From: Gemmatimonadota bacterium
GTDB lineage: Bacteria > Gemmatimonadota > Gemmatimonadetes > Palauibacterales > KS3-K002
Direction: 5' to 3'
Assembly (NCBI GenBank): GCA_039586575.1
Contig: JBDHKD010000002.1
Location: forward strand, 1,128-65,127
DNA: 64,000 nt
Positions 18,808 to 63,406 of the stretch are shown one piece after another (position 1 is the first letter of the stretch; the number at the start of each line of letters is the position of its first letter). Under the pieces are notes generated by a model. That model ran no database searches, was not told the origin of the DNA, and was given only the letters and a program-made list of their open reading frames with translations. Both the position numbers and the translations under genes were made by a program.

Positions 18808-19349
18808 ACCCGCCGGAACTTAATCGAGCGGCCAGGGCTGCTCATGTTGAAGTTCAGGATCAGCTGCCTGCCGTCATCGGACAGCTCGTAGGTGGTGACG
18901 AGCCGCGGGCCGCCTTCGAGCTTCCGTTCGATCTCGAGCTTTTCCCCTTTCCAGCGCGCCCTGGTGACGGTATCGCCGAGCCCCGAGAAGCGGCGCTGGA
19001 CCTCTCGGCCGTCGGTTAAGAAGGACAGCGAGGTCCCGTCCATGCCGGTGACGGTGACGGTGGAATCGTCCTGCGCGATTCGGAAGACCCGCGCCGCCGC
19101 CAGGATGGCGCTTACCCGCTCGCCACTACGGGCTCGATTGCCGCCGGGAAGTGATGGGTTGGCCGGATTGTCTGCCGCCTGCCGGAACACTTCGTCGGGG
19201 TTGTCGCTGGCCAGGTCGTTGAGCAGCCATGTGCCGTTGAAGTCGACGTGCTGGGGCGCGGGATCGGAACCGCCGCCGGAGCAGGCTAGTGTGGCCACCA
19301 CGAGCGCCGCTCCTACCAGCCGAATCAGCGAGGCTATCTGCTTTCTCAT
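18783..19349 (-). CDS. Lipoprotein, hypothetical (188 aa)
   Basis: ATG at 19349 gives MRKQIASLIRLVGAALVVATLACSGG lipobox; beta-rich mature part. Confidence 0.5.
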   Translation of the reverse strand: MRKQIASLIRLVGAALVVATLACSGGGSDPAPQHVDFNGTWLLNDLASDNPDEVFRQAADNPANPSLPGGNRARSGERVSAILAAARVFRIAQDDSTVTVTGMDGTSLSFLTDGREVQRRFSGLGDTVTRARWKGEKLEIERKLEGGPRLVTTYELSDDGRQLILNFNMSSPGRSIKFRRVYDAAEGR

Positions 19350-19371
19350 AGGACTACCACGAACTCCCATC

Positions 19372-19872
19372 TCAGGGCGTCTGCCGCGGCGGCCTGGAGG
19401 GACCCCCGCGCCGGCCCGGCATCATCCCCGGCACTTGCCCGAGTCTGCGGCGCCAATCTGTCTCGAGGCTGTCCAGGGCCGCAGCCTGCTCGGCGGTCAG
19501 CACCGCACGGATCTCCTGACGAATCGAGTCGGTGACGGCGCGCAGCTCGTCCAGAACAACCTCCGTGCGCGGCCGGCCGCTCTCCATAATTACTGCGATC
19601 TGCTCTCTCTGTTCCGCCGTCAGTCCGAGTGCGCGAAACATAGACGGCATGACGCCTTCGCGGAACCTCCCGACCATCTCGGGGCCCGGCTCGAAGGGCC
19701 GGGGCACGAAACGTTCGGTCTCCCGGATCCCGTCCAGCCGCTCCGCCGCCCGCACGAAGGCGTCCTGGGTCACGTCCTCCGCATCGATTCCGTTCCCCAG
19801 CACGCCGAGGGCGACGGCGAACGCCGCCGCGTCGCCGCGGCGTGCTCTGTGCACGAGCTTCGCATCGCTCAA
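19372..19872 (-). CDS. LTXXQ-motif (CpxP/Spy-like) protein whose N-terminus resembles a truncated ECF sigma-70 region 2; no signal peptide (166 aa)
   Basis: N-terminus MSDAKLVHRARRGDAAAFA…DAEDVTQDAFVRAAERLDGIRETERF mimics ECF sigma region 2.1-2.2; C-terminal half carries two LTAEQ repeats typical of the periplasmic LTXXQ family. Confidence 0.45.
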   Translation of the reverse strand: MSDAKLVHRARRGDAAAFAVALGVLGNGIDAEDVTQDAFVRAAERLDGIRETERFVPRPFEPGPEMVGRFREGVMPSMFRALGLTAEQREQIAVIMESGRPRTEVVLDELRAVTDSIRQEIRAVLTAEQAAALDSLETDWRRRLGQVPGMMPGRRGGPSRPPRQTP

Positions 19873-20123
19873 GTCGGGATCCCTCGCCCCGGCCAGACCC
19901 TCACTTCTCCACTGATGTACGACAGCCAGACCATCCCAAACGTTAGCTCGACCAGGGAGCTTCGGCGCCGGGCTCAGCGCGGCCCCCTGACTTCACTTTT
20001 GCCCCAGGTGCTCTCAGCCACAAGGCAGTCGGCCTGTGAACAAGGCGGCTCCTGCGGTGTACGAGATTCGAGCCGCCCGTATCGGCTCGCCTGCCTTGGC
20101 TGTAACTTCACCGACCTTCAAAG

Positions 20124-21281
20124 GTGAGCGAACCCGTGGGCAATGCGGACTTTCTGGGAATCCTCGAGCTCAAGGATAAGGGCACCGGCTTCATCCGTTG
20201 CCGGGAGGCGAGTTACCTGCCTTCGGACTGCGATGTCCATGTAGGCCGCAAGCTGATCCAGGACTACCGGCTGCGGACAGGTGACGAGATCGCCGGTGTG
20301 GTCGGCCAGGCGCCGGGGAAGGGGAAGAGCCCGCCGCTCATCGAGGTCACGGCGGTCAACGGCATGCCGCCCGAGCAGCTGGAGGGTCGGCCCGACTTCA
20401 ACCGACTCGGCGCGATCCACCCGGACGAGCAGCTGGTTCTCGACTGCGGCCGCACGTTGCGCGGCGCGCCGGACTACACGAACCGGGTCATCGATCTCCT
20501 GTGTCCCTTCGGTAAGGGGCAACGCGCGTTGATCGTTTCGCCGGCCAAGGCGGGCAAGACCACGGTGCTGCAGTCGGTGGCCGAGGGCATCGTCAAGAAC
20601 TATCCCGACGCTACTCTGCTGATCCTGCTGGTCGATGAGCGCCCCGAAGAGGTCACCGAGATGGAGATGTGCGGCTTCGGTGAGGTCGTGTCGTCGAGCT
20701 TCGACTTCCCGGCCGAGCGCCACGTCGCGGTCGCCGAGCTTACGCTCGAGCGGGCACGTCGCCGCGTCGAGCTCGGTCAGGACGTCGTCATCATCCTCGA
20801 TTCCATCACGCGCCTCGCGCGCGCCTACAACAACGTGGAGCGGGGCACCGGCCGCACCCTCTCCGGTGGCCTCGACGCGTCGGCGATCGAGGGTCCCAAG
20901 CGCTTCTTGGGTAGCGCCCGCAGGGTCGACCCGGCGAAAGGCGGTGGCTCGCTCACCATCATCGCCACGGCTCTCGTCGACACGGGCTCCCGCATGGACG
21001 ATGTGATCTTCGAGGAGTTCAAAGGGACGGGGAACAGCGAGCTGGTCCTAAGTCGCGAGCTGGCCGAGCGCCGCCTCTTTCCTGCCATCGATCTCAACTC
21101 CAGCAGCACACGCCGTGAAGAGCTGCTGCTCGATCCACCGACGCTCGCTATCTCGCAGGCGATCCGCCGCCGCCTCGCCGAGGCCGCGCCGGCAGATGCG
21201 ATGACCGAGCTCTTGGGCGTAATGAAGAGAACCGGGTCGAACGCCGAGCTCGTGCAACAGGCCGCCGGGTCGGCGGGCTAG
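20124..21281 (+). CDS. rho: Transcription termination factor Rho (385 aa; short form beginning at the CSD/OB subdomain)
   Basis: GTG start; Rho CSD ([15 protein letters not shown]), Walker A ([18 protein letters not shown]), Q- and R-loops, Walker B ([16 protein letters not shown]). An in-frame TAA 21 nt upstream excludes a longer N-terminus. Confidence 0.9.
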
Positions 21282-29541: not shown

Positions 29542-30648
29542 ATGACGACGCTCTTCCCCACGGTCTACGCCGAGAAGAACCGCTCCACGTTCTTCGACGT
29601 GGCGGGAACCCTCATCACGGTCAGCTATGATCTGATCGAACGGAAGCGCTGGTTCTTGTTTCCCAGCCCGGCGCTGGCTCGCGTCCTGATCAATATCGGC
29701 GACGGTGAGTCGCTGATGTCCCACGAATACTCGGTGCCCAGGAACCGCCGGGTCGGTCCGGAGATCGCCGGCGTCGAACGAGGCCTGTACAGGCTCCTGG
29801 ATGATGCCGTCTGCACGACGATGCAGATCAAAGCACTCGAGGCCGCGGAAAGGGAAGTGCAGGCCCTGGAAGCCGAGCACCTGTTCGAAGGTGGAAGTGG
29901 AAGTGGCTCCCGCGAGCAGCCCGCCGACGCCGCAGCTGCGCGACGGGCGTGGGAGCAGAGACTGCTGGAAGAGTTGATCGACCGATTGATTACGGCGTTG
30001 CGCCACGTCACCAACGTGACATCACTCACCCCCGAGGGGCTCGAAGCCCATCAACGCGACCGTTCCCAGGCGCTGGAGCGCGTCGTTCAATCGACGACTC
30101 TCGCCTCGGTCCTCGAGGCGCAGGGCGTGCTGAGTGCGGTGGAGACGTTTCTGGCCCACGAGGTCGAGACGACGACCGATGTGAATGTGCTCAGGGATAG
30201 GACGCTGGACTATCTGGAGCGGCTGCACGAGAGGAGCGGTCGCGGGGCACCGGCGCTCAGTTACCCGCAAGCGCACATTATCACCAACGAGTTCGTGCCT
30301 GCCTTCGTGGAGATGAAGAAGGAATACGATGCGGCCAGCTCTGTCCCTTCCAACATCGTCGAGCATGCCTTCGGCAGCTTCTTCGGTGGAGGCATAGCCG
30401 GTTGGCTGACGCTCTCGCTATTCGGGGAAGCCGTGATCAGAGGCCTGACCGGGATGTATGTGGATATACCCGGTTGGTATATCGGCGCCGCGGTGGCTTT
30501 CGTTTGGCCTTACCTCAAGGCGAGCCTCGGGATGACCAGGCGCGAAAGGCAATACGAGAAGCGACGTCAGAAGCTCTTGCGGAGACTCGGCAAGCGGCTC
30601 GAGCTCGTCTGGCCGGAAAGCGGCTCGCGGTCTGTGCCCCCCTCCTAG
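29542..30648 (+). CDS. Hypothetical protein: N-terminal globular region, central coiled coil, C-terminal Gly-rich two-TM hairpin (368 aa)
   Basis: Clean ORF with no similarity I can recall; C-terminus FGSFFGGGIAGWLTLSLFGEAVIRGLTGMYVDIPGWYIGAAVAFVWPYL predicts two TM helices; ends with a basic tail. Confidence 0.5.
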   Translation: MTTLFPTVYAEKNRSTFFDVAGTLITVSYDLIERKRWFLFPSPALARVLINIGDGESLMSHEYSVPRNRRVGPEIAGVERGLYRLLDDAVCTTMQIKALEAAEREVQALEAEHLFEGGSGSGSREQPADAAAARRAWEQRLLEELIDRLITALRHVTNVTSLTPEGLEAHQRDRSQALERVVQSTTLASVLEAQGVLSAVETFLAHEVETTTDVNVLRDRTLDYLERLHERSGRGAPALSYPQAHIITNEFVPAFVEMKKEYDAASSVPSNIVEHAFGSFFGGGIAGWLTLSLFGEAVIRGLTGMYVDIPGWYIGAAVAFVWPYLKASLGMTRRERQYEKRRQKLLRRLGKRLELVWPESGSRSVPPS

Positions 30649-42100: not shown

Positions 42101-42712
42101 CTAACGCGCCGCGTCGAACCGCTTCGCCACCTCGTCCCAGTTGACCGTGTCGAACCAGGCCTCGATATAATCGGGTCGCCGGTTCTGATACTTCAAGTAG
42201 TAGGCGTGCTCCCATACATCGATCCCGAGGATCGGCCTACGCCCCTCGGTGAGTGGGCTGTCCTGGTTCGGGGTGCTTTCGACGACCAGCTTCCCCTTCG
42301 GGTCCACCGAGAGCCACCCCCAGCCGCTGCCGAAGCGCGTCGCCGCCACATCACCTAGCTGCTGCTTGAAACTCGCGAAGTCGCCGAACGCCGCGGCTAT
42401 CGCGCCGGCCAGCTCGCCCGTCGGCTCGCCGCCGCCACCCGGGCCCATAATCGACCAGAAGAGCGTGTGGTTCGCGTGACCACCACCGTTGTTGCGGACC
42501 GCGGTCCGGATGTCCTCCGGCACCTCACTCAACTGTGCCAACAGCTTCTCGACCGGCCAATCGGCCAGCCCCGCGTGCTTCTCTAGCGCCCCATTCAGCT
42601 TGGCGACGTAGCCCGCATGGTGCTTGCCGTGGTGGATCCGCATCGTCTGCTCGTCGATATGCGGCTCGAGCGCCTTGTAGTCGTAAGGGAGCGGGGGAAG
42701 TTCGTGAGCCAT
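42101..42712 (-). CDS. Fe/Mn superoxide dismutase, 203 aa
   Basis: ATG at 42712 preceded by GGAGGAAAA RBS; metal ligands and signature (HHGKHH…[18 protein letters not shown]). The 421-aa ORF in the track is an N-terminal over-extension. Confidence 0.9.
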
Positions 42713-43016
42713 TTTTCCTCCTATCACGGGTGGGGCACCTTTCGGATAACACGAGAAAGATACTGCGAAAGAGGGGTGGTTCAACGTGGCGATTGCAGCG
42801 CGCCTTCCGCGGCCTTGCGAAATGCGACTGTTTTCGGTATATGTTCGGGTCACCGTACTACAGGGGGACGCAGGCGATTTCGGAGTCTGGTCGCGCTGGC
42901 CGCCCTTGTCCTGGCCTTGGGGGCGGGCGGCTGCGGTCGCGGTGAGCAAGCGGTCGACGAAGCGGTAGTACTGTCGGCCGATCCCATCGTCATCTCCAAA
43001 CCAAACGAGGGCACGA

Positions 43017-43378
43017 TGTTTGTTGGTCTGAGAACCGTCGTCTACCAGGTCGACGATCTGGAGAAGGCGAAGGAATGGTACGGCCGGGTCTTGGGATTCG
43101 AGCCGTACTTCGACGAGCCGTTCTACGTCGGGTTCAACGTGGCTGGGTTCGAGCTGGGGCTGCATCCGGCCGAGAAAGACGCGCCCCTCGGAGCCGGGGG
43201 TACGCTCGCGTATTGGGGAGTCGAAGATATCGTAGCGGTGATGGCCAGGTTGGAAGAGCTGGGCGCCCCGGTGCACAGCGAGATTCAGGATGTCGGCGAA
43301 GGGATCTTGGTGGCCTCGGTGATCGATCCGTTCGGCAACCTGGTGGGGATCATCCAGAACCCGCATTTCGGGAACTAG
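43017..43378 (+). CDS. VOC (glyoxalase I / bleomycin-resistance) family protein, 120 aa
   Basis: ATG at 43017 with GAGGG RBS; VOC beta-alpha-beta-beta-beta pattern (…[23 protein letters not shown]…[31 protein letters not shown]). Confidence 0.6.
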
Positions 43379-51773: not shown

Positions 51774-51891
51774 GTCTCAGCCCTCCGTACAGCTGTCGCC
51801 CACTCACGCTTTGATAGCTGCCGTGTAGTGCGGTAGATTGTCCCCCACGACCGGGAACTCACTTCCCACCCACGAGAGTCCGGACATTCCC

Positions 51892-53871
51892 ATGCCTGAG
51901 GAAGAACGCAACCGTCTGCTGCAACGCTTGGAAGCGTTGGAGCGTCAGGCGCAGCGCTTCGATATCGAGCTGAGGCGCCTGCGGCATGACGTAGAGCGCC
52001 ACAGCACCAGCCCCGCAGTCGCGGAAGTCAGGGCGCCCGGCCTTCGGGCCCGCGAGGCGGTGCCCCCGGAACCTCCTCCGACGCCGGCTCCGGTCGCCGG
52101 CGTGTCGGACGAGCCGCGCCGGCGGCGGGCAGTCGAAATCGAGTTCTGGCTCGGCGGGCGTGGTCTGCTACTGCTCGGTGTCCTCGCTCTCGTCTTCTCC
52201 GTCGGGTTCTTCGTCAAGGAAGCGATCGAGAGAGGCTGGATCGGTCCGGCTGTGCGAGTGCTCCTCGGCATCGCCGTCGGCATGGCGGCCGTGGGTGTGG
52301 GAGAGCGACTACGGGCCGTCGGATACCGGACCTACGGGCTCTGGCTCGCCGCCGGCGGCTTCGGCGCCATCTACCTCAGCATCTGGGCGGCCGCGGCGCT
52401 CTATGCGCTCGTGCCCGCCGCGTGGGGCTTTCTTCTAATGGTTGCGGTCGTCGTTGCGGCGGCCGCCTTGGGGCTGCTCCGCGCCTCCGAGTCCTTCGTC
52501 GCTTTGGCTGCGTTCGCTGGCTACCTGGCGCCGCTGCTGATACAGGTCGATACCGCCTCCAACCTCTTCGCCCTCGGCTACCTCGGTCTCCTCTCCGGCG
52601 CCGGCCTCTGGGTCTCCTTCCGGGCGCGCTGGCAGGGGCTGGCGGCGGTCGCCGTTCTCGGCGGCTCGCTGCTCTCGCTGACCGGTGTCGGTGACCCTTA
52701 TCTGCACGGGGCCTATCTGGCGATACTGGTCACGGCGGCGATGGTCGTCGCCAGGCTGAGACACTGGCCCGAGGTATCGCTCCTGACGATCGCACTCGGT
52801 TGGACCGTTCTGGCGGCCGGGCACGGGAGGTGGGAGCTGACCGGGCTCAAGCTCTCGTCCCACGCCGCCTGGCTGTGGTTAGCCAACCTCATCGGGTCGG
52901 TCGGTGTGACTGCCGGGTACAGGCCCGAGGCGGCTGATAGCAAGTCGTGGGTGGCCGCCGACACGCGCCAGTCGTTCGCCGAGGTGAGTGGTCTGGCGGT
53001 CACGCTCTTACCGCCCTGGTTGTTCCTGATCCTCGCGATGGCCGGGCTGGGCGATTCGACCTACAGCGGGTCGCGCGACGTTGTAGGGTTCGCTTTGGGT
53101 ATCTTCACCGGCGCCGTCTACCTCACCCAGTCGATCCTGATCCGCGCCGATGGCGAGCCACGGCGTTGGCCCTGGGCTGTATACCTCGGATACGCCCTCT
53201 GGATCGTGGCGCCTTGGATACTCTGGGACGGTGCTTCGTTGGCCCGGGTCTGGTTGCTCGAGGGCGCCGTACTCACCGGCGCCGGCGTCGCTCTGAGGTC
53301 CCTGGAAGCACGCTCAGCTGGCCTGGCTGCCTTCGCAGTCGCTGCCTTGACGTACTCGGCTGCAGCGGTCAACCGTCCGGATCTCGATCCGGCCTTCTTC
53401 AGCGTGTGGGCGCTCACCGGTCTCGCCTCCGCGATCGCGCTCGCCGCCTGGGGGCTGGCTCTCGAGCTGCTGGATGAACCCGCGGCCTGGGAAATCGGCC
53501 TCCGACCCGTCCTGATGCTGTTCTCCGCTCTCCTGTTCCTGAGTTGGGGAACGCTGGAGATCCAGCGGTTCTTCGAGCTGCTCGCTGATGATGGCCGCTG
53601 GAATCTCGCCCGCGACCTCTCGATCAGCGGATTCTGGATCGCTTACGCCGTCGCGCTGCTCACCGCTGGCTTTTGGCTGAAGCGCGCTCCCGTGCGTTGG
53701 GCCGGCCTCGTCATGGCGCTCATCGCTGCCGCCAAGGTCTTCCTTTATGACCTGTCGCAGCTCTCCCAGTTGTATCGCATTCTCAGCTTCGTGCTGCTTG
53801 CGGTGGTTCTGCTGGCGCTCTCGTTCCGCTACCAGAAGCTCCGCCGGACCGAGGAGGAACCGAAGTCCTAG
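51892..53871 (+). CDS. DUF2339-like large polytopic membrane protein with N-terminal coiled coil, about 660 aa
   Basis: N-terminal coiled coil (LLQRLEALERQAQRFDIELRRLRHDVER), then about 15-18 hydrophobic helices; ATG at 51892 preferred over TTG at 51838. Confidence 0.55.
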   Translation: MPEEERNRLLQRLEALERQAQRFDIELRRLRHDVERHSTSPAVAEVRAPGLRAREAVPPEPPPTPAPVAGVSDEPRRRRAVEIEFWLGGRGLLLLGVLALVFSVGFFVKEAIERGWIGPAVRVLLGIAVGMAAVGVGERLRAVGYRTYGLWLAAGGFGAIYLSIWAAAALYALVPAAWGFLLMVAVVVAAAALGLLRASESFVALAAFAGYLAPLLIQVDTASNLFALGYLGLLSGAGLWVSFRARWQGLAAVAVLGGSLLSLTGVGDPYLHGAYLAILVTAAMVVARLRHWPEVSLLTIALGWTVLAAGHGRWELTGLKLSSHAAWLWLANLIGSVGVTAGYRPEAADSKSWVAADTRQSFAEVSGLAVTLLPPWLFLILAMAGLGDSTYSGSRDVVGFALGIFTGAVYLTQSILIRADGEPRRWPWAVYLGYALWIVAPWILWDGASLARVWLLEGAVLTGAGVALRSLEARSAGLAAFAVAALTYSAAAVNRPDLDPAFFSVWALTGLASAIALAAWGLALELLDEPAAWEIGLRPVLMLFSALLFLSWGTLEIQRFFELLADDGRWNLARDLSISGFWIAYAVALLTAGFWLKRAPVRWAGLVMALIAAAKVFLYDLSQLSQLYRILSFVLLAVVLLALSFRYQKLRRTEEEPKS

Positions 53872-54066
53872 CCAAGAGCTGAACAGCGACCTGCGCGAAG
53901 GAGCTTCGAGCCAGCTAACGCACTACATATCATAGCGTTATCGATCCGATCCGCCTGCGGGCGCCAGCCCACCGCGTCGGTAAACATTTTACGTCAAAAT
54001 GAAAACAGTAATCGGTCAGTATGTCCGGGCCGATCGTAAGTCGTTGTCGCGTCGTCCGCTCTTCGT

Positions 54067-54082
54067 TGGCACGAAGATGGCA
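54067..54082 (+). promoter_or_regulatory. Possible sigma-54 -24/-12-like element TGGCAC-GAAGA-TGGCA, embedded in CTTCG/CGAAG/CTTCG inverted repeats
   Basis: GG-N10-GC spacing correct, 58 nt upstream of the first pilin gene; one mismatch to consensus TTGCA in the -12 box. Confidence 0.25.
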
Positions 54083-54139
54083 CTTCGCCCGATGCCCAGA
54101 CCCGCCTCACACGTTGGCGAAAGAAGCGTAGAGGTAACC

Positions 54140-54565
54140 ATGACGACGCTTGCATGTAAGCGCGGTTACACGATGGTCGACATGGCCGTCGTCCTGCTGC
54201 TGATCGGGGCCGCTATGGGCACGACCGGGCCCCTGAGCCGGCGGATGGTCGCGCTGTACCAGCTGAACACGTCGGCGCAGACGTTGGCGGCGGATCTGTC
54301 ACAGGCTCAGATCCGGGCGATCCAGTCGAACGCGATGGCGGCCGTGACACGGGAATCGCATCGGGACTACCGGGTGGCGGGGTATCCGCGGCGGCTGCCG
54401 GGGATGGTGCGGTTCGATGGTGAGAGCGCCGAGTCGGTGACGTTCAACGGCTTAGGCGCGATGAGCGACGGAGCCACGCACCGGTTTATCCTGACCAACC
54501 TGTTCGGAGAGTCGCGAGAGATCGTGGTGTACGCGGCCGGAGGACACGAGGTACGCAAGCTGTGA
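54140..54565 (+). CDS. Type IV pilin-like protein, GspH/FimT-type pseudopilin, 141 aa
   Basis: Class III signal: MTTLACKRG|YTMVDMAVVLLLIGAAMG (Asp at +5); GspH-like body (…LSQAQIRAIQSNAM…); GAGGTAA RBS. Confidence 0.6.
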   Translation: MTTLACKRGYTMVDMAVVLLLIGAAMGTTGPLSRRMVALYQLNTSAQTLAADLSQAQIRAIQSNAMAAVTRESHRDYRVAGYPRRLPGMVRFDGESAESVTFNGLGAMSDGATHRFILTNLFGESREIVVYAAGGHEVRKL

Positions 54566-54966
54566 GGACTAGTGGATTCAGTCTGGTCGAATTGATGGTC
54601 GCGCTGGTGATCTTCGCCTTTGGCGTGCTGGCCGGCGTGGCGCTCTTGGGTTCCGGCTACCGTTGGGAGGGGCAGGCCGAGCTGGAGACGCAGATTACGG
54701 TTGCGGCTGAGATGAAGATCGAGGAACTGAAAGCGGTGGCCGGGACCAACCTTCCGGATACGGTACAGCTGGTCCCGGGTGGGAACCTCGAATCGAACGA
54801 GAGCGGATACTGGGACACAGCCGATGTAGACGGACGGATCTTCACTCGACGCTGGCGGGTCCAGGCAGGGCCGGCGGGGACAAGGCAAGTGACGGTAAGG
54901 GTACTGCCCTTGGATCCGCCCGCGGCGGGTGAAGCCGAGATTTGGACGCATATCCTCCATGAGTAA
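54562..54966 (+). CDS. Type IV minor pilin PilV-like, 134 aa
   Basis: MRTSG|FSLVELMVALVIFAFG canonical prepilin motif with Glu+5; ATGA overlap with upstream gene. Confidence 0.6.
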   Translation: MRTSGFSLVELMVALVIFAFGVLAGVALLGSGYRWEGQAELETQITVAAEMKIEELKAVAGTNLPDTVQLVPGGNLESNESGYWDTADVDGRIFTRRWRVQAGPAGTRQVTVRVLPLDPPAAGEAEIWTHILHE

Positions 54967-55567
54967 CCAGGGTGCGACGAACCGCATGCGGAGCTCGGCG
55001 GCTGGCTTCAGCACGATCGGCATGATCGTGGCGATCATGTTGCTCGGTCTGATGCTGGCGCCGATGCTCGGAACGATCGTCAGCGCACAGCGTGGCTTCG
55101 TGGCGAGCCGGGATCGGGCACGTGCGGCCGGCAGCGTGCGCTACGCACACCTCTCGTTGACCCGGTTCATGCGCCTGGCCGGCAGCAGCCCGCTGGGCTT
55201 GCCGCTGCCGGGTATCGATCCCGATCCGGATGGCGATGGCGTGTTCAACGACGTTCGCCTGCGCTCGGACTACAACCCGCCGGATGGTGACATCGATGAT
55301 CCGGGCGAAGACCTGACTTTCTTTCTGCGCGCCGACACGATGTACGTGAAGACGGGAGCCGGCGACACGGAAGAGCCTTACCTGATCGGCGTCGACTCGC
55401 TGGCCTTCGACTACTTCGACCGCGACGGCGCGCTGATCGTCGATCCGAGTCGTGTGCCGACGCGTGCTATCTCCGCCAGCGTGACCATCCGCGGACGGGG
55501 CGACCGGTACGTTGATCCGTCGGAGCGCACCCTGGCCGGGCTTGTCCGCCTGCGAAACGGGAAGTGA
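54959..55567 (+). CDS. Type IV minor pilin PilW-like (Gly at +5 instead of Glu), 202 aa
   Basis: …RSSAAG|FSTIGMIVAIMLLGLML prepilin-like leader and helix; ATGAGTAA overlap with upstream gene. Confidence 0.5.
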   Translation: MSNQGATNRMRSSAAGFSTIGMIVAIMLLGLMLAPMLGTIVSAQRGFVASRDRARAAGSVRYAHLSLTRFMRLAGSSPLGLPLPGIDPDPDGDGVFNDVRLRSDYNPPDGDIDDPGEDLTFFLRADTMYVKTGAGDTEEPYLIGVDSLAFDYFDRDGALIVDPSRVPTRAISASVTIRGRGDRYVDPSERTLAGLVRLRNGK

Positions 55568-56877
55568 TGGCTATGCGGAACCCACTGCGATCGAACCAAT
55601 CGGGAATGGCGTTGCTGGCGGTGCTGCTGGCCATGGCCCTGCTCACCGCGTTGGGTGCGGCACTCACCGCCGTGGGGATCGTCGAATTCCGCGCCGCCAA
55701 GAATCACCGCTCGGCCGCCCGTGCTCTGCTGCTGGCCGACGCCGGCGCCACCCATGCGCTGGCGCTCATGCGTGGTCCGATGGCCGTCTACAGCTACTCC
55801 GACGTGCTGATCGGCGCGGATGGGGTGGCGGACACCGAGGATGACGGGATCTTCTCCGGGTACGCGCTGGACGCGGCCGACGCGCTGCCGGACACGGGCA
55901 TCCTGCTGGGTGATGGCCGCTACTACGTGCGGATCGTGAACGACGATGGGGATCCCAGCGGTGATCCCTACGACGACGACAATCACCGCTTCGTGGCGCT
56001 CTGCCGCGGCGAGACCCCCGACGGCGGGATGGCGGAAGTGCGGGTCATGCTGGCCGCGCCGAGTTACCCGGCCATCGCGACGAACGGCACGCTGTACCTC
56101 CCGGGCAACCCCGAGGTTCTCGGGCCCTGTGGCGGCGTGCACGCCAACCGGGTCGTTTCGGTCAGCGGGCACCCGGTGGTGAGCGCCGGTGTGACGGCCA
56201 GCGATACGGTCATCGTGAGCGGAACGATCTACGATCCCTATGGCAACGTCGTGCAGCCGGAGTATGCGCCACCGGTGGAACTCCCCTACTATGATCCGCT
56301 CGACTATTGCCAGGATGCCGACTACCGCCTCAAGAACAACAAGCTGATCGTGGTGGGGCCGCCGCAGAGCGAGTACACTCTCGGCAAGGTGCTCGGTTGG
56401 CAGTTCGTGGCGTCGACCTGGACGTACGAGCTGAACGGCAATGAGGCTGTCGGGGGCAAGTACTGTGTCCAGGGCAACGTGCAGATCGTCGGCAACCTGG
56501 GTGAGCCGGGCAATCCGCTCGATATCACCATAATCGCCACGGGCTCGATCCAGGTGGGCGGCGTGCCGATCATCGAGCCCGCCCACGACGGCGAGATCCT
56601 GTTGCTCGCTGGCGGCGACGTACAGATCGGCGGCACGACGACGGCAAAGCGATCGCCCTACTACGCGGGCCTCATCTACGCCGGCAGCCAGTGCCAGGTG
56701 GGCGGTACGCCGGTCGTCGACGGCAACGTCCTGTGCTACGATGCGCAGGACCCGGAAGGTGCCGTAGACCTCTTCGACGAGAACAAGATCAACGGGACTC
56801 CCAGGATCTCCGCCGATTGCTCTGGGGAGCGGCGGCGCACGCTCGTCGCGTCCTGGTGGGAGTCGCGCACGTCGTAG
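55567..56877 (+). CDS. PilX_N-domain minor pilin with about 300-aa Cys-containing, Gly-rich repeat extension, 436 aa
   Basis: …NQSG|MALLAVLLAMALLTALGAAL (PilX N-terminal pattern); C-terminal region with repeats GNVQIVGNLG / GSIQVGGVPI / GDVQIGGTT and 7 Cys; TGATG overlap with PilW-like gene. Confidence 0.6.
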   Translation: MAMRNPLRSNQSGMALLAVLLAMALLTALGAALTAVGIVEFRAAKNHRSAARALLLADAGATHALALMRGPMAVYSYSDVLIGADGVADTEDDGIFSGYALDAADALPDTGILLGDGRYYVRIVNDDGDPSGDPYDDDNHRFVALCRGETPDGGMAEVRVMLAAPSYPAIATNGTLYLPGNPEVLGPCGGVHANRVVSVSGHPVVSAGVTASDTVIVSGTIYDPYGNVVQPEYAPPVELPYYDPLDYCQDADYRLKNNKLIVVGPPQSEYTLGKVLGWQFVASTWTYELNGNEAVGGKYCVQGNVQIVGNLGEPGNPLDITIIATGSIQVGGVPIIEPAHDGEILLLAGGDVQIGGTTTAKRSPYYAGLIYAGSQCQVGGTPVVDGNVLCYDAQDPEGAVDLFDENKINGTPRISADCSGERRRTLVASWWESRTS

Positions 56878-56904
56878 ATCGGATCCCAGACAGGACGACC
56901 CCCG

Positions 56905-58242
56905 ATGACCCGCCCACGGACGATCCGACAAATATCGCGAACCCGGGTGCGGGACGATAGATCTGGGATCGCTCTGCTGACGGTTCTGTTGGCCATGGCG
57001 CTGCTTACCGTGATCGGCGCCGCGCTCGCCGCCATCGGCATCGTCGAGTATCGCAAGTCCCTCAACCATCGCTCCGCGACCCGCGCGCTGCTGCTCGCCG
57101 ATGCCGGTGCCAGCCACGTGCTGGGGCTGATGCGCGGGCCACTGAGCCACTTCACCTACAGTGACGTTATCAGGGGGGACGACCGGGCTCCGAACACGCA
57201 GGATGACGGTGTGCTGGCGGGCTTCGGGCTCGACGCGTTCGATGAGCTGCCCGACACCGGAGTCGTGCTGGGCCTGGGCCGCTACTTCGTTAGGCTGGAG
57301 AACGACGCCGCTGACCCCAGCGGCGACCCATCTACCGACTCCAATCACAGGGTCGTCGCGATCTGTCGCGGCGAGCTGCCCGACGGCGGTGTCGCGGAGG
57401 TCCGCGCGATACTCGCCGCGCCGAGCTTCCCGGCCATCGTCAGCAACGGAGACCTCACGTTGCCCGGCAACCCGGAAGTGCTAGGACCGTGCGCAGGCGT
57501 TCACGCCAACGGCGACCTGAGGGTCAGCGGGCATCCGACCGTGGATGGAGAGGCGACGGCGTCCGGCGAGTTGATCTTGAGCGGCACGATCTACGACGCG
57601 AACGGCAACATCGTGGTTCCGCGCTACCAGCAGCAGATGGAGGTCCCCCAATACAGCTTGCAGAGCTTCTGCGCAGACGCCGACTACGAGCTCCTCGATG
57701 GCTATGTGGTCGCCGCGGGTCCGCCACGCCAGAGCACCCTGGCCACCGGCAACGGACACCTGGGCTGGAAGTGGAACGCGAGCCAGGGTACGTGGAGCCT
57801 ATCGGGTAGCGAGGCGGTTTCCGGCACTTACTGTGTGCACGGCAACGTATCGGTGACCGGCAACATCGGGAGTGACGGTGCGCCGCTGCAGATCTCGATC
57901 CTGGCCAGCGGGTCGGTCCAGGTGGCGGGGAACCCGAAGATCGAGGCCGACCACCCCGACGGCGTCCTGATCCTGGCCGAAGGCGACGTGCAGATCGCTG
58001 GCAACGCCTCGGGGATGACGCTCTCCTACGCCGGCCTGGTCTACGCCGGCAGCCAGTGCGAGGTCAACGGCACACCCAGCGTTGGGGGGCATGTCATGTG
58101 CTACGACGATCCCGACCCGCTGGGCGCCACCAATCTCGTTAGCGAGAACAAGATCAACGGGACTCCCGAAGTCACCTACGACTGTACGGGCGAACGGCGC
58201 CGCACCCTGATGGCGACGTGGTGGGAGTCACGAGCACGATAG
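56905..58242 (+). CDS. PilX_N-domain minor pilin paralog (tandem duplicate of the preceding gene), 445 aa
   Basis: …DRSG|IALLTVLLAMALLTVIGAAL; about 60% identical and co-linear with the previous protein, including all 7 Cys and the shared C-terminal CxGERRRTLxAxWWESR. Confidence 0.6.
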   Translation: MTRPRTIRQISRTRVRDDRSGIALLTVLLAMALLTVIGAALAAIGIVEYRKSLNHRSATRALLLADAGASHVLGLMRGPLSHFTYSDVIRGDDRAPNTQDDGVLAGFGLDAFDELPDTGVVLGLGRYFVRLENDAADPSGDPSTDSNHRVVAICRGELPDGGVAEVRAILAAPSFPAIVSNGDLTLPGNPEVLGPCAGVHANGDLRVSGHPTVDGEATASGELILSGTIYDANGNIVVPRYQQQMEVPQYSLQSFCADADYELLDGYVVAAGPPRQSTLATGNGHLGWKWNASQGTWSLSGSEAVSGTYCVHGNVSVTGNIGSDGAPLQISILASGSVQVAGNPKIEADHPDGVLILAEGDVQIAGNASGMTLSYAGLVYAGSQCEVNGTPSVGGHVMCYDDPDPLGATNLVSENKINGTPEVTYDCTGERRRTLMATWWESRAR

Positions 58243-58340
58243 ACCCGCCAAGTTCTGGAGTCAGACGTCAACCCAACAGACGGCGAGCGCCGGACCGGCG
58301 CTCGCCGTCGCGCATCTTGCAGGCCATTTGCCAACGGAAG

Positions 58341-59798
58341 TCAGGACCGCAGCATCTCCGACCAGCGAAGTGTCGGACCTATCAGAACGGGAATACTCTC
58401 GCTCCGAGCCTGGTACATGGCAGTGTCGGCTTCGATGACCAGGCGCTCGACGATTCTCGGGAAGTCGGGAAAACCCAAATCCATCGGTGAGACGTCGTCC
58501 GCCTCCAAGGTGACGAGGCCGATCGTCGTCTTGATCGGCGGTATCCCCTTCGGCCACGAGCGGGCCTGCTCGCCGGCCAGCGCCGATCGGATGCGATTCG
58601 CGACTACCCCGCCTCCCTCGGGGTTGGCATCGATGAGAACGATTAGGAACTCATCCCCACCGAAGCGGCCTACGACATCCGAATCCCGCACGCAGCGCTT
58701 GAGCAGGCTGCCCATGTGCCTGAGCGCGCGGTCACCGACAACGTGCCCGTGCTCGTCGTTCAGATTCTTGAACTTGTCGATGTCGAGCATCGCCACCGTG
58801 ACGGGAAACGCCTTGCGCCAGGCCAACTTGAGCGACTCGCGCAGGCGTTCCATCGTGAATTGCTTCTGGTAGACCCGCGTTGTCGTGTCGACGGTGGCCA
58901 GTTCGTACAGTGCGGCATTACGGATCGCCGCAGCGGCCTGGCTGGCGAAGACCTGAAGAAGATCGATGTCACGCTCGCCGATGCCCGGCTTGTTGAGATA
59001 GGCCAGTCCCAGGACGTGGTCTGCCAGCGTGAGTGGCAATACACCGTGATCGTCGTCGATGATGTTGCTGCGCTCTTCGACTGCCCGCCGCATCAGCTGG
59101 TCGGGGACCGCTCTGAGTTTGTTGATCGAGGCGCCGCGCGGGTAAGAATCGCTGCTGGCCGCGGCGACCACGTAGTCATCGACGCTCTGCGGAGAGTATA
59201 TGAAGCCTTCGATGCTCGGCTTGCCGACCGGGTCGCTCAGCCGCGCGGCGACAAACGCGCTCTCGCCGCCCATCAGCCGGCTGACCTCGTCCAGGATCGT
59301 CTCCGTAACATCCTCGAGCGACTGGATCTGGTGTAGTTGGGGTACTGCTTCCAGGACCCGCCTTAACCCTTGGCGTGAGCGCCGGATCATGTCCAGCTGC
59401 TGCGCCGCCTGCAGGGCGGCGTTCACCCAGAGCCGCAGGCCCTGCTCACCGTGACCTTTGTCGTGATAACCATAGGCCTTGTGCTCGCGGGTTACCCGGC
59501 TAAAACGTCCTCCCGGAGCGCCGTTGCCCATGAGCACGATGGGTGCTCCCGGAGCCAGCTCCCGCAAGTCGGCCAGCGGGTCGGCGCCGTCGATCTCCAG
59601 CAACGCCAGCTCGACCAGTAGCGCGTCGGGCAGATGGTCGGCCAGAAAGCTCGCGGCAGCGATGAGGTCCTCGACTCCCCAAACGCAATGGCCCTCCTCG
59701 GCGATGTGGCCGCAGCTTCGACTGAGGAAGTCAGGGTCGCTGTCGATGAGCAGAACGCTGAGTCCCTGCTTCGCGCGATTGCGACGCAGAAGGGTCAT
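58341..59798 (-). CDS. Receiver-like (REC) - GAF - GGDEF protein (response-regulator-type diguanylate cyclase), 485 aa
   Basis: N-terminal REC-like fold (VLLIDSDPDF…ALLVELALLEIDG), central GAF, C-terminal GGDEF with intact RFGGDEF and upstream I-site-like RxxD. Confidence 0.8.
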   Translation of the reverse strand: MTLLRRNRAKQGLSVLLIDSDPDFLSRSCGHIAEEGHCVWGVEDLIAAASFLADHLPDALLVELALLEIDGADPLADLRELAPGAPIVLMGNGAPGGRFSRVTREHKAYGYHDKGHGEQGLRLWVNAALQAAQQLDMIRRSRQGLRRVLEAVPQLHQIQSLEDVTETILDEVSRLMGGESAFVAARLSDPVGKPSIEGFIYSPQSVDDYVVAAASSDSYPRGASINKLRAVPDQLMRRAVEERSNIIDDDHGVLPLTLADHVLGLAYLNKPGIGERDIDLLQVFASQAAAAIRNAALYELATVDTTTRVYQKQFTMERLRESLKLAWRKAFPVTVAMLDIDKFKNLNDEHGHVVGDRALRHMGSLLKRCVRDSDVVGRFGGDEFLIVLIDANPEGGGVVANRIRSALAGEQARSWPKGIPPIKTTIGLVTLEADDVSPMDLGFPDFPRIVERLVIEADTAMYQARSESIPVLIGPTLRWSEMLRS

Positions 59799-62834: not shown

Positions 62835-63275
62835 CTACTTGTCCTTCTTGGTCATGGGCTCGCAGGCGATGACGCCTTCGGTCTGGGCCGGCTCGTACGG
62901 GTCAATCTCACCGATAAAGATTGCGCAGTAGAATCGGTCCGGCCGCCGCAGTTTGTGCTCGGCCCGGGCCGACCATCCCCTCTCATCGGCGCGCATCTTG
63001 ATCATCACGTTGGGGCTGGGTGTGAAATCGAGCCGATGCGTCTGGCTGGCGTAAGTGGCGCTTGCATCTTGGTTCGGGTCGTCTGCGAAGTAGCCGCCGG
63101 TAGAGGCGTGGTAGACTTCCTGTGCATGGGTCAAACTGCGTAGATCCGACTCCATCACCGCCAGATAGGCCGAGCTCTTGGCCCGCTGGAGGGTAGCCGA
63201 GCCCATGGCGGTGAGGATGGCGATGATGACCATGGCGAAGATCAGCTCGAGGATCGTGAACCCTCGAGATCTCAT
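62835..63275 (-). CDS. Type IV major pilin candidate (PilA/PilE-like), 146 aa
   Basis: AGGAGGG RBS; MRSRG|FTILELIFAMVIIAILTAMG canonical class III signal with Glu+5; C-terminal Cys pair (…FYCAIFIGEIDPYEPAQTEGVIACEP…) consistent with a D-region disulfide loop. Confidence 0.75.
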   Translation of the reverse strand: MRSRGFTILELIFAMVIIAILTAMGSATLQRAKSSAYLAVMESDLRSLTHAQEVYHASTGGYFADDPNQDASATYASQTHRLDFTPSPNVMIKMRADERGWSARAEHKLRRPDRFYCAIFIGEIDPYEPAQTEGVIACEPMTKKDK

Positions 63276-63406
63276 GATAGATTGCCCTCCTGGCGGGAAG
63301 AATGCGCTGGCGGGGGTGGTAGCCAGCCCTTGTAGTCTGCCGCCTTTTCTGCCTGTCCGCAAGTCCGCTGGTTGCAGAAAGGCCTGGCGGCCGGGCCCGC
63401 AGCCGC

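What the first reader, a model, noticed from the sequence alone, without database searches (positions are those of the whole stretch)
55567..58242. Tandem, diverged PilX_N paralogs with a conserved 300-aa Cys- and Gly-rich repeat extension
Both proteins (436 and 445 aa) are more than twice the size of classical PilX (about 170-200 aa). After the PilX-like N-terminal helix they share a co-linear extension. It has seven positionally conserved cysteines and repeated Gly-rich short beta-strand motifs (GNVQIVGNLG, GSIQVGGVPI, GDVQIGGTT in copy 1; GNVSVTGNIG, GSVQVAGNPKI, GDVQIAGNAS in copy 2), suggesting a beta-solenoid. They also share an invariant C-terminal CxGERRRTLxAxWWESR. Nucleotide identity is low, so this is an old duplication retained on both copies. 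The PilX-anchored beta-helical module may be a filament-tip adhesin standing in for the absent PilY1.
Basis: seen in the sequence. Interest (0 to 1): 0.65.

Follow-up and report, generated by a model that had tools for sequence, protein, structure and literature searches.

The report
Tandem ComZ-like pilus-tip minor pilins
Two neighbouring genes of an uncultured Gemmatimonadota bacterium encode large pilus-capping proteins in which a beta-solenoid rod is inserted into a pilin fold, a design already known from Thermus ComZ and cyanobacterial PilX, so this is a new example of a known kind.

Summary
Two adjacent + strand genes (55564/55567-56877 and 56905-58242; 437 and 445 aa) are 59% identical in protein and 65% in DNA. 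All seven cysteines align, and the Gly-rich motifs recur every 23-24 residues.

They close a FimT/GspH-PilV-PilW-type minor-pilin operon. Both have a PilX/GspK-type N-terminus without Glu5. AlphaFold2 models are confident (pLDDT 89 and 92.5). The model without its membrane helix matches Thermus thermophilus ComZ (6QVI) over its full length (Foldseek E 3e-12), then ice-binding beta-solenoids.

So these are ComZ-type apical minor pilins: a pilin domain, an inserted triangular beta-solenoid, and a conserved last beta-strand (the RRRTLxAxWWESR motif).

The same operon occurs in 21 Gemmatimonadota genome loci, none with PilY1 nearby. One old duplication gave the tandem pair, and both copies are under purifying selection. 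They differ most in a loop region (aa 244-297) bracketed by a covarying cysteine pair.

It has already been proposed for cyanobacterial PilX, and part of the domain is catalogued as Pfam DUF7305.

Verdict: a real feature and a new member of a known kind, of modest interest.

The parts
54140..54565 (+). FimT/GspH-like minor pilin. The ORF is listed from 53999. The likely true start is at MTTLACKRG|YTMVD, with Asp at +5.
   Evidence: NCBIfam N-terminal matches to GspH (E 9e-5) and Verru_Chthon cassette protein D. Weak Pfam GspH match. Ortholog N-termini and +5 residues. Conserved in 21 loci.
54562..54966 (+). PilV/GspI-like minor pilin (SG|FSLVE, Glu5 present). It overlaps its neighbours, which suggests translational coupling.
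   Evidence: Pfam N_methyl E 1e-6. NCBIfam PilV E 1.2e-7, N-terminal region only. Glu5 in 20 of 20 orthologs.
54929..55567 (+). PilW/GspJ-like minor pilin by position (AG|FSTIG). There is no acidic residue at +5.
   Evidence: Weak NCBIfam XpsI/GspJ N-terminal matches. Position and conservation in all 21 loci. Residue +5 is G or A in 19 of 19 orthologs.
55564..56877 (+). Copy 1, a ComZ-type apical minor pilin of 437 aa. Domains: leader and alpha1 helix aa 13-70, pilin beta-sheet aa 113-164, beta-solenoid aa 171-416, last strand aa 427-434.
   Evidence: ORF. AF2 model with pLDDT 89. Foldseek matches to ice-binding solenoids. N-terminal matches to GspK and Verru_Chthon protein A.
56074..56811 (+). 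Copy 1 beta-solenoid (aa 171-416). Rung motifs G[NSD][VI]x[VI]xG start at aa 304, 327 and 351.
   Evidence: DSSP strand pattern. Motif spacing of 23-24 residues and lag-24 hydrophobic periodicity.
56293..56454 (+). Copy 1 aa 244-297, the region where the two paralogs differ most. It is bracketed by C249 and C301.
   Evidence: Paralog identity here is 36% against 57-58% among orthologs. C249 and C301 are lost together in 7 of 12 downstream copies.
56842..56865 (+). Copy 1 C-terminal beta-strand (aa 427-434, within RRRTLVASWWESR). It is the candidate in-cis licensing strand.
   Evidence: DSSP strand E427-434. W431 is invariant and E433 at least 90% conserved. Role inferred from PMC12918778.
56905..58242 (+). 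Copy 2, a ComZ-type apical minor pilin of 445 aa. Solenoid about aa 178-424, last strand aa 435-443.
   Evidence: ORF. AF2 model of aa 45-445 with pLDDT 92.5 and pTM 0.80. Foldseek top match is ComZ 6QVI, E 3e-12. Pfam DUF7305 22.1 bits and PilX_N 16.8 bits, both below cut-off.
58207..58233 (+). Copy 2 C-terminal beta-strand (aa 435-443, RRRTLMATWWESR).
   Evidence: DSSP strand E391-399 of the trimmed model, with block pLDDT about 84.

Best explanation
The two genes encode alternative apical (cap) minor pilins of the GspK/PilX class, built like Thermus ComZ.

Architecture. Each has a prepilin-type leader and a hydrophobic alpha1 helix without Glu5. Then comes a small pilin beta-sheet. A roughly 250-residue triangular beta-solenoid of the ice-binding-protein type is inserted before the last beta-strand.

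Proposed mechanism. Together with the three small pilins encoded upstream (FimT/GspH-, PilV/GspI- and PilW/GspJ-like) they would form the priming complex. That complex starts a type IV filament and stays at its tip, with the solenoid pointing outward as cap, plug and probable binding module. The strongly conserved C-terminal strand (RRRTLxAxWWESR) would return to the pilin sheet. There it would supply in cis the strand that PilY1/PilC supplies in trans in classical T4aP, making the system independent of PilY1. The tandem paralogs would give two interchangeable tips. They share the pilin-domain interface but differ in a surface excursion (aa 244-297).

Shown here: the sequence features, the fold, the operon context, the history of the duplication and purifying selection.

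Inferred: the tip location, the in-cis licensing strand, the binding function, and the alternative use of the two copies.
For: Fold:
- The AF2 models are confident.
- The trimmed copy-2 model matches ComZ chains 6qvi_A/B/C at E 3e-12 to 8e-11, probability 1.00, over 542-553 columns. Next come ice-binding proteins 6eio, 6bg8, 5b5h and 3uyu.
- ComZ is the only PDB sequence touched by the family profile (E 0.073).

Class:
- N-terminal matches to GspK, Verru_Chthon protein A and PilX_N.
- The +5 residue is Ala or Thr in 33 of 33 family members.

Context:
- The order FimT-PilV-PilW-solenoid pilin(s) is conserved in 21 Gemmatimonadota loci, with no PilY1.
- Distant relatives also end minor-pilin operons.

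C-terminal strand:
- It is predicted as a strand in both models, and it is as conserved as the pilin sheet (75% between paralogs).
- The cis-versus-trans strand model comes from PMC12918778.

Paralogs:
- The tree shows a single duplication.
- dN/dS among orthologs is 0.11-0.27 for both copies.
- Divergence is concentrated in aa 244-297, flanked by the covarying C249/C301 pair.
Against: - No coordinates were available, so pairing of the last strand with the pilin sheet rests on strand order and the full-length ComZ alignment.
- Foldseek TM-scores to ComZ are low (0.27-0.34). This probably reflects insertions and a different angle between the domains.
- Sequence similarity to ComZ is not significant (E 0.073).
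- No filament machinery (PilB/C/M-Q or Gsp) lies in the window, so T4P versus a T2SS-like system is undecided.
- PilY1 may exist elsewhere in the genome; some Gemmatimonadota have homologs.
- No binding function or ligand is indicated by any data.
- Alternative use of the two copies is only inferred. They could instead act together.
Confidence: 0.65

Rival explanations
1. They are DNA receptors of a competence pilus, as proposed for ComZ. The solenoid would bind extracellular DNA at the pilus tip for natural transformation.
For: ComZ is by far the best structural match. It binds DNA and is needed for transformation but not for piliation. One cyanobacterial PilX subfamily is tied to competence.
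Against: The soluble parts are strongly acidic, with pI 4.1-4.8 and net charge about -23 to -26. No competence genes were found among the window ORFs scanned. The DNA-contacting lysines of ComZ could not be mapped. The fold match says nothing about the ligand.
Confidence: 0.12
2. The operon encodes the GspH-I-J-K tip of a type II secretion (or other non-surface) pseudopilus. The two proteins would be enlarged GspK caps acting inside the secretin, not on a surface pilus.
For: The gene order H-I-J-K without PilY1 is the T2SS pattern. There are N-terminal NCBIfam matches to GspK, GspH and GspI/J. GspK also supplies the last strand in cis.
Against: The operon stands alone, with no gsp machinery or GspG next to it. 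The second gene matches PilV better than GspI (E 1.2e-7 versus 0.007). The closest structure, ComZ, and the cyanobacterial PilX both belong to type IV pili. All NCBIfam matches cover only the N-terminal helix.
Confidence: 0.15
3. The two paralogs work together in one tip complex as an obligate pair, rather than as alternatives.
For: They are always adjacent, 13-86 nt apart, in the genomes that have both. Both are kept under purifying selection.
Against: Five related genomes manage with a single copy in the same operon. Both copies lack Glu5 and so both look like the topmost subunit. The pilin domains that would dock on shared partners are the most similar parts.
Confidence: 0.08

Closest known systems
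ComZ of Thermus thermophilus HB27 (PDB 6QVI; PMC6561018)
   Same: [quoted passage not shown] Both are encoded among minor pilin genes. Both are argued to fit only at the filament tip. Foldseek E 3e-12 over the full length.
   Different: Identity is only 14%, and profile-to-sequence similarity is not significant (E 0.073). ComZ is about 100 residues longer, with longer loops. The proteins here are very acidic and have a clade-specific set of cysteines. They occur as a tandem pair. DNA binding is unknown.
Cyanobacterial PilX proteins (Synechocystis PilX1-3; bioRxiv 10.64898/2026.02.12.705559)
   Same: Both are PilX-class subunits without Glu5, with a triangular ice-binding-protein-like solenoid inserted before the C-terminal strand. 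Both have several paralogs per genome. PilY1 is generally absent from the host. The solenoid is proposed to take over the PilY1 plug role.
   Different: The phylum differs. In cyanobacteria each PilX subfamily pairs with its own PilV subfamily, whereas here two paralogs share one PilV-like gene.
GspK (T2SS) and classical PilX/PilK (T4aP)
   Same: They share an N-terminal helix of the PilX_N/GspK type, the lack of Glu5, the last position in an H-I-J-K operon, and the apical role. Like GspK, these proteins carry their own C-terminal strand.
   Different: GspK carries an alpha-helical insertion, and classical PilX has none (about 170-200 aa, from general knowledge). Here the insertion is a roughly 250-residue beta-solenoid. 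Curated model cut-offs are not reached.
CpaL of the Caulobacter Tad pilus (PMC12918778)
   Same: Same topological logic: an N-terminal pilin-like domain, a large middle module, and an extreme C-terminal strand that returns to complete the pilin sheet.
   Different: CpaL belongs to a different filament class (T4cP) and has a different middle domain. No sequence or fold match was seen here.
Pfam DUF7305 (PF23981) and Verru_Chthon cassette protein A (TIGR02600)
   Same: DUF7305 covers the C-terminal half of the solenoid and co-occurs with PilX_N (P0257). Verru_Chthon protein A is another very large protein with the same N-terminus in a four-gene pilin-like cassette.
   Different: The window copies score below the DUF7305 cut-off (22.1 versus 27 bits for copy 2, no match for copy 1). 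Only the first 57 residues match protein A.

Membership tests
GspK/PilX-class apical minor pilin (Pfam PilX_N PF14341; NCBIfam GspK NF037980) | Short leader, a Gly before the cleavage site, and a hydrophobic alpha1N helix of the PilX_N type | tested here: met
   SG|MALLAVLLAMALL in copy 1 and SG|IALLTVLLAMALL in copy 2. GspK and Verru_Chthon protein A models match aa 12-70 (E 2e-6 to 6e-4). The model shows a helix at aa 13-70.
GspK/PilX-class apical minor pilin (Pfam PilX_N PF14341; NCBIfam GspK NF037980) | Score above the curated family cut-off | tested here: not met
   PilX_N gives 16.8 bits against a cut-off of 25.5 for copy 2, and no match for copy 1. GspK gives 19-21 bits against 130. Relatives do pass: P0257 scores 26.2 bits, and 28 of 40 distant members match at E<0.001.
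GspK/PilX-class apical minor pilin (Pfam PilX_N PF14341; NCBIfam GspK NF037980) | No Glu at position +5 of the mature protein | tested here: met
   The +5 residue is Ala (25) or Thr (8) in 33 of 33 family members, while the PilV-like neighbour has Glu in 20 of 20.
GspK/PilX-class apical minor pilin (Pfam PilX_N PF14341; NCBIfam GspK NF037980) | Encoded last in an H-I-J-K / FimU-PilV-PilW-PilX type operon | tested here: met
   Overlapping or closely spaced genes 53999-58242. The same order is seen in 21 loci.
GspK/PilX-class apical minor pilin (Pfam PilX_N PF14341; NCBIfam GspK NF037980) | Processed by prepilin peptidase and located at the filament tip | not testable with these tools
   Needs biochemistry or imaging. 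No cultured host is known for this clade; all 21 loci come from MAGs.
ComZ-type pilin (pilin fold with inserted ice-binding-protein-like beta-solenoid) | Full-length fold similarity to ComZ (6QVI) | tested here: met
   Foldseek E 3.1e-12, probability 1.00, 553 aligned columns. TM-scores are low at 0.27-0.33.
ComZ-type pilin (pilin fold with inserted ice-binding-protein-like beta-solenoid) | Solenoid of the triangular ice-binding-protein (DUF3494) type | tested here: met
   The next-best matches are ice-binding proteins 6eio, 6bg8, 5b5h, 3uyu and 8x1p, with E 1e-3 to 5e-2, probability 0.85-0.99 and TM (target) 0.37-0.44.
ComZ-type pilin (pilin fold with inserted ice-binding-protein-like beta-solenoid) | [quoted passage not shown] | tested here: inconclusive
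   The strand order fits: sheet aa 113-164, solenoid aa 171-416, terminal strand aa 427-434.
ComZ-type pilin (pilin fold with inserted ice-binding-protein-like beta-solenoid) | Detectable sequence homology to ComZ | tested here: inconclusive
   ComZ is the only PDB match of profile A2, but at E 0.073 and only over the helix and first strands. Profile A1 gives nothing.
ComZ-type pilin (pilin fold with inserted ice-binding-protein-like beta-solenoid) | DNA binding and a requirement for natural transformation | not testable with these tools
   The only relevant result is an acidic net charge, which argues weakly against it.
Pfam DUF7305 (PF23981) | Score at or above the gathering cut-off (27 bits) | tested here: not met
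   Copy 2 scores 22.1 bits (E 1.5e-4, aa 306-390) and copy 1 has no match. The relative P0077, 54% identical to copy 1, scores 28.6 bits and P0257 scores 34.1 bits. 20 of 39 close members match at E<0.01.
PilY1-independent tip complexes with an in-cis C-terminal strand (PMC12918778) | The K-type subunit carries its own extreme C-terminal beta-strand | tested here: met
   A terminal strand of 8-9 residues is predicted in both models. It is highly conserved.
PilY1-independent tip complexes with an in-cis C-terminal strand (PMC12918778) | No PilY1/PilC in the system | tested here: inconclusive
   None was found in the 64-kb window. None lies in the flanks held for the 21 loci, up to 8 kb each side where the contig allows, or near three distant relatives. 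Whole genomes could not be searched, and PilY1 homologs are reported in some Gemmatimonadota.

The most novel reading that the evidence does not exclude
The tandem pair may be a two-tip system. A single FimT-PilV-PilW set would prime filaments capped by either of two solenoid pilins. Both would supply the licensing C-terminal strand in cis, so no PilY1 is needed. They would differ in a disulfide-bracketed surface excursion (aa 244-297) that sets what the tip binds. The convergent, always-syntenic REC-GAF-GGDEF regulator might link tip choice or surface contact to c-di-GMP.
Probability: 0.3. Interest if true: 0.45.

Novelty: new member of a known kind. Interest (0 to 1): 0.3.

Why it matters
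It extends the ComZ / solenoid-PilX design for a pilus tip to a third phylum, after Deinococcota and Cyanobacteria. It also extends it to a large metagenomic family: 443 clusters at 50% identity reach E<1e-30. That supports the emerging view that many type IV filaments outside Proteobacteria build their tip module into the K-type minor pilin rather than recruiting PilY1. The conserved tandem pair, with divergence focused on one excursion, is a natural test case for how tip specificity diversifies. It opens no new question, and no cultured host is available.

Tried and rejected
Approaches that gave nothing or were unavailable:
- Foldseek with the full-length copy-1 model, which includes the long membrane helix, found only weak ice-binding-protein matches and missed ComZ. 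Trimming the helix fixed this.
- A PDB sequence search with the close-family profile found nothing. P0257 alone gave only chance matches.
- tblastn against the plasmid collection found no match.
- A full-text search for 'DUF7305' found no papers.
- The second homolog search, with a profile of distant members, mostly returned the same close family.
- The cluster look-up of 10 distant representatives gave no informative names.
- The promoter and terminator scan of 53700-58500 found nothing.

Readings considered and rejected:
- The 645-aa antisense ORF as a real gene. Its codon-position GC is the mirror image of the + genes.
- A disordered or low-complexity extension. pLDDT is 89-92.5.
- A bactofilin relationship. 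Only 2 of 39 members match, weakly, which is a generic beta-helix resemblance.
Full report
**What is there**

The finding covers two adjacent + strand ORFs, 55564-56877 (437 aa from GTG; 436 aa from the ATG at 55567) and 56905-58242 (445 aa), separated by 27 nt. They are preceded on the same strand by three short ORFs that overlap or abut: 53999-54565, 54562-54966 and 54929-55567. The window has 61-68% G+C. Both genes show the codon-position G+C pattern of real genes (GC3 0.83-0.86). A 645-aa ORF on the opposite strand (55411-57348) has the mirror pattern and is a shadow ORF.

**Check of the observation**

- BLASTP gives 59% identity over 433 residues with three gaps.
- Codon-aligned DNA identity is 65%, and 50% at third positions.
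- All seven cysteines align.
- The quoted Gly-rich motifs exist. They start at aa 304, 327 and 351 in copy 1 and at 313, 336 and 360 in copy 2, a spacing of 23-24 residues.
- The C-terminal CxGERRRTLxAxWWESR motif is shared.

The description is accurate. The qualifications concern 'Cys-rich', 'invariant' and 'PilX_N' and are given below.

**Operon context**

- The first upstream protein has weak GspH/FimT-type matches. Its likely true start is at MTTLACKRG|YTMVD.
- The second has a clear prepilin motif (SG|FSLVE) and its best match is PilV.
- The third is PilW/GspJ-like by position and by weak N-terminal matches.
- The two large proteins match only through their first ~57 residues to GspK and to Verru_Chthon cassette protein A. 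Pfam PilX_N is sub-threshold for copy 2 and absent for copy 1.
- At family level PilX_N is matched by 20 of 39 close members (E up to 0.01) and 28 of 40 distant members (E up to 0.001). UniRef names two orthologs as type 4 fimbrial biogenesis proteins.
- After the predicted cleavage site the +5 residue is Ala or Thr in all 33 family members, whereas the PilV-like neighbour always has Glu. Lack of Glu5 is the hallmark of the topmost subunit of these filaments.
- Scans of 20 large ORFs across the window, plus those flanking the operon, found no PilY1/PilC and no pilus or secretion machinery. They found efflux pumps, metabolic enzymes, kinases and similar.

**Structure**

- AlphaFold2 with a 39-sequence alignment gave a confident model of copy 1 (pLDDT 89). 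It has a long helix at aa 13-70 and a four-stranded sheet at aa 113-164. About 25 short strands follow in solenoid fashion (aa 171-416), then a terminal strand at aa 427-434.
- Foldseek with this model found only ice-binding proteins of the DUF3494 type, and weakly.
- A second model, of copy 2 without the membrane helix (aa 45-445), was better still: pLDDT 92.5 and pTM 0.80.
- Its top PDB matches are the three chains of ComZ from Thermus thermophilus (6QVI), at E 3e-12 to 8e-11, probability 1.00, aligned over 542-553 columns at 13-14% identity. Ice-binding proteins follow. TM-scores to ComZ are low (0.25-0.34), as expected for two-domain proteins with different loops and domain angles.
[quoted passage not shown] Its nearest structural relative is the ice-binding protein FfIBP, and the shape fits only at a filament tip. 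The models here have the same order of elements.
- ComZ is also the only PDB sequence touched by the broad family profile, though not significantly (E 0.073).

**Family and history**

- The first homolog search found 89 proteins. Every one that carries an organism name is from a Gemmatimonadota MAG, and adjacent locus tags show tandem pairs.
- A profile search of 1.84 billion cluster representatives found 443 clusters at E<1e-30, 1187 at E<1e-10 and 8276 at E<1e-3. Among the 150 best listed, most are 400-505 aa and match over nearly the whole profile. This is a large, mostly unnamed family.
- A scan of species-representative genomes returned 21 loci, all Gemmatimonadota.
- The loci show the order FimT-PilV-PilW followed by one or two solenoid pilins wherever the contig extends far enough. 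A convergent REC-GAF-GGDEF gene and an alcohol dehydrogenase follow.
- Thirteen of those loci plus the window have the tandem pair. Five have a single copy followed directly by the GGDEF gene.
- In a neighbour-joining tree the upstream copies and the downstream copies form separate clades. So one duplication predates the divergence of these genomes.
- dN/dS among orthologs is 0.11-0.27 for both copies, so both are maintained.
- Distant relatives (24-40% identical) also sit at the end of minor-pilin operons without PilY1.

**What distinguishes the two copies**

- Identity between paralogs is highest in the pilin domain and the C-terminal strand (71-78%).
- It is lowest in aa 244-297 (36%, against 57-58% among orthologs).
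- That region is bracketed by C249 and C301. These two are lost together in 7 of 12 downstream copies and never singly, which is the signature of a disulfide.
- Broader relatives lack most of the seven cysteines, so they are a clade-specific addition and not part of the fold.
- The soluble parts are very acidic, with pI 4.1-4.8 and net charge -23 to -26.

**Mechanism**

Two recent preprints supply the framework.

- Ellison et al. (PMC12918778) show that tip-complex assembly needs a C-terminal beta-strand that completes the sheet of the K-type pilin. PilY1/PilC gives it in trans in classical T4aP. GspK, ComGG, Vibrio PilX and CpaL give it in cis, and CpaL has about 470 residues between its pilin domain and that strand.
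- The cyanobacterial study reports that all cyanobacterial PilX proteins carry an ice-binding-protein-like solenoid inserted before the C-terminal strand. It proposes that the solenoid replaces the PilY1 plug.

The proteins here fit both. The most conserved part outside the pilin domain is the terminal strand (W431 invariant), and no PilY1 accompanies the operon.

The solenoid would be displayed distally as a plug and probable binding module. Tip location, in-cis licensing and binding are inferences, not results.

**Rivals**

- A DNA-receptor role like that of ComZ is possible, but the charge disfavours it.
- A T2SS-type pseudopilus cap cannot be excluded, because no machinery genes are in view.
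- An obligate heteromeric pair is unlikely, given the single-copy genomes and two Glu5-less subunits.

**Novelty**

That was a good call, but it is no longer new.
- The architecture was solved in 2019 (ComZ).
- It has been generalised to cyanobacterial PilX with the same PilY1-replacement hypothesis (2026 preprint).
- The C-terminal half of the solenoid is catalogued as Pfam DUF7305. That domain co-occurs with PilX_N and is passed at the curated cut-off by P0077, 54% identical to copy 1.
- What is added here: the Gemmatimonadota clade, the conserved tandem duplication with focused divergence, the covarying cysteine pair, and the size of the wider family.

Noticed in passing
window 58341-59798 (-): A response-regulator diguanylate cyclase (REC, DUF3369/GAF, GGDEF) converges on the end of the pilin operon. 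It holds the same position in every related locus whose contig reaches that far. It is a possible c-di-GMP link to the filament, or it may simply reflect conserved synteny.
   Followed up: partly
window 62835-63362 (-): A pilin-like ORF with a canonical prepilin motif (MRSRG|FTILE, Glu5). It is probably about 146 aa once the over-long ORF start is trimmed. Homologs lie 3-8 kb downstream of the operon in seven related loci. It is a candidate major pilin or pseudopilin.
   Followed up: partly
window 54929-55567 (+) and orthologs in L001-L022: The PilW/GspJ-like protein has Gly or Ala instead of an acidic residue at +5 in 19 of 19 orthologs (AG|FSTIG). The FimT-like protein has Asp rather than Glu in 15 of 17. 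Two subunits per operon set lacking an acidic +5 residue is unusual.
   Followed up: partly
window 55828-55848 and 55939-55983 (copy 1 aa 89-95 and 126-140): Two nearly invariant acidic loops in the pilin domain, DTEDDG and NDxxDPSGDPxxDxN, look like calcium-binding sites. No family model matched them.
   Followed up: no
window 55411-57348 (-): A 645-aa ORF antisense to both genes. Its codon-position G+C (GC1 0.82, GC3 0.68) mirrors the + strand genes, so it is a shadow ORF of a high-GC genome.
   Followed up: yes
L024 4988-11341: A distant relative (P0094, 39% identical to copy 1) sits in a contig with two minor-pilin gene sets in tandem. The first ends in an unannotated 354-aa protein. So whole sets are duplicated there, rather than only the cap gene.
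   Followed up: no
window 51838-53871 (+): A large DUF2339 membrane protein lies directly upstream of the pilin operon. It is syntenic in about half of the related loci. Its function is unknown.
   Followed up: no
window 42101-43366 (-): The Fe/Mn superoxide dismutase domains occupy only aa 221-416 of a 421-aa ORF. The roughly 220-aa N-terminal part is either an over-long ORF call or an unusual extension.
   Followed up: no
window 18892-20127 (+) and 29542-30648 (+): Two sizeable ORFs (411 and 368 aa) have no Pfam match at E<1e-4.
   Followed up: no
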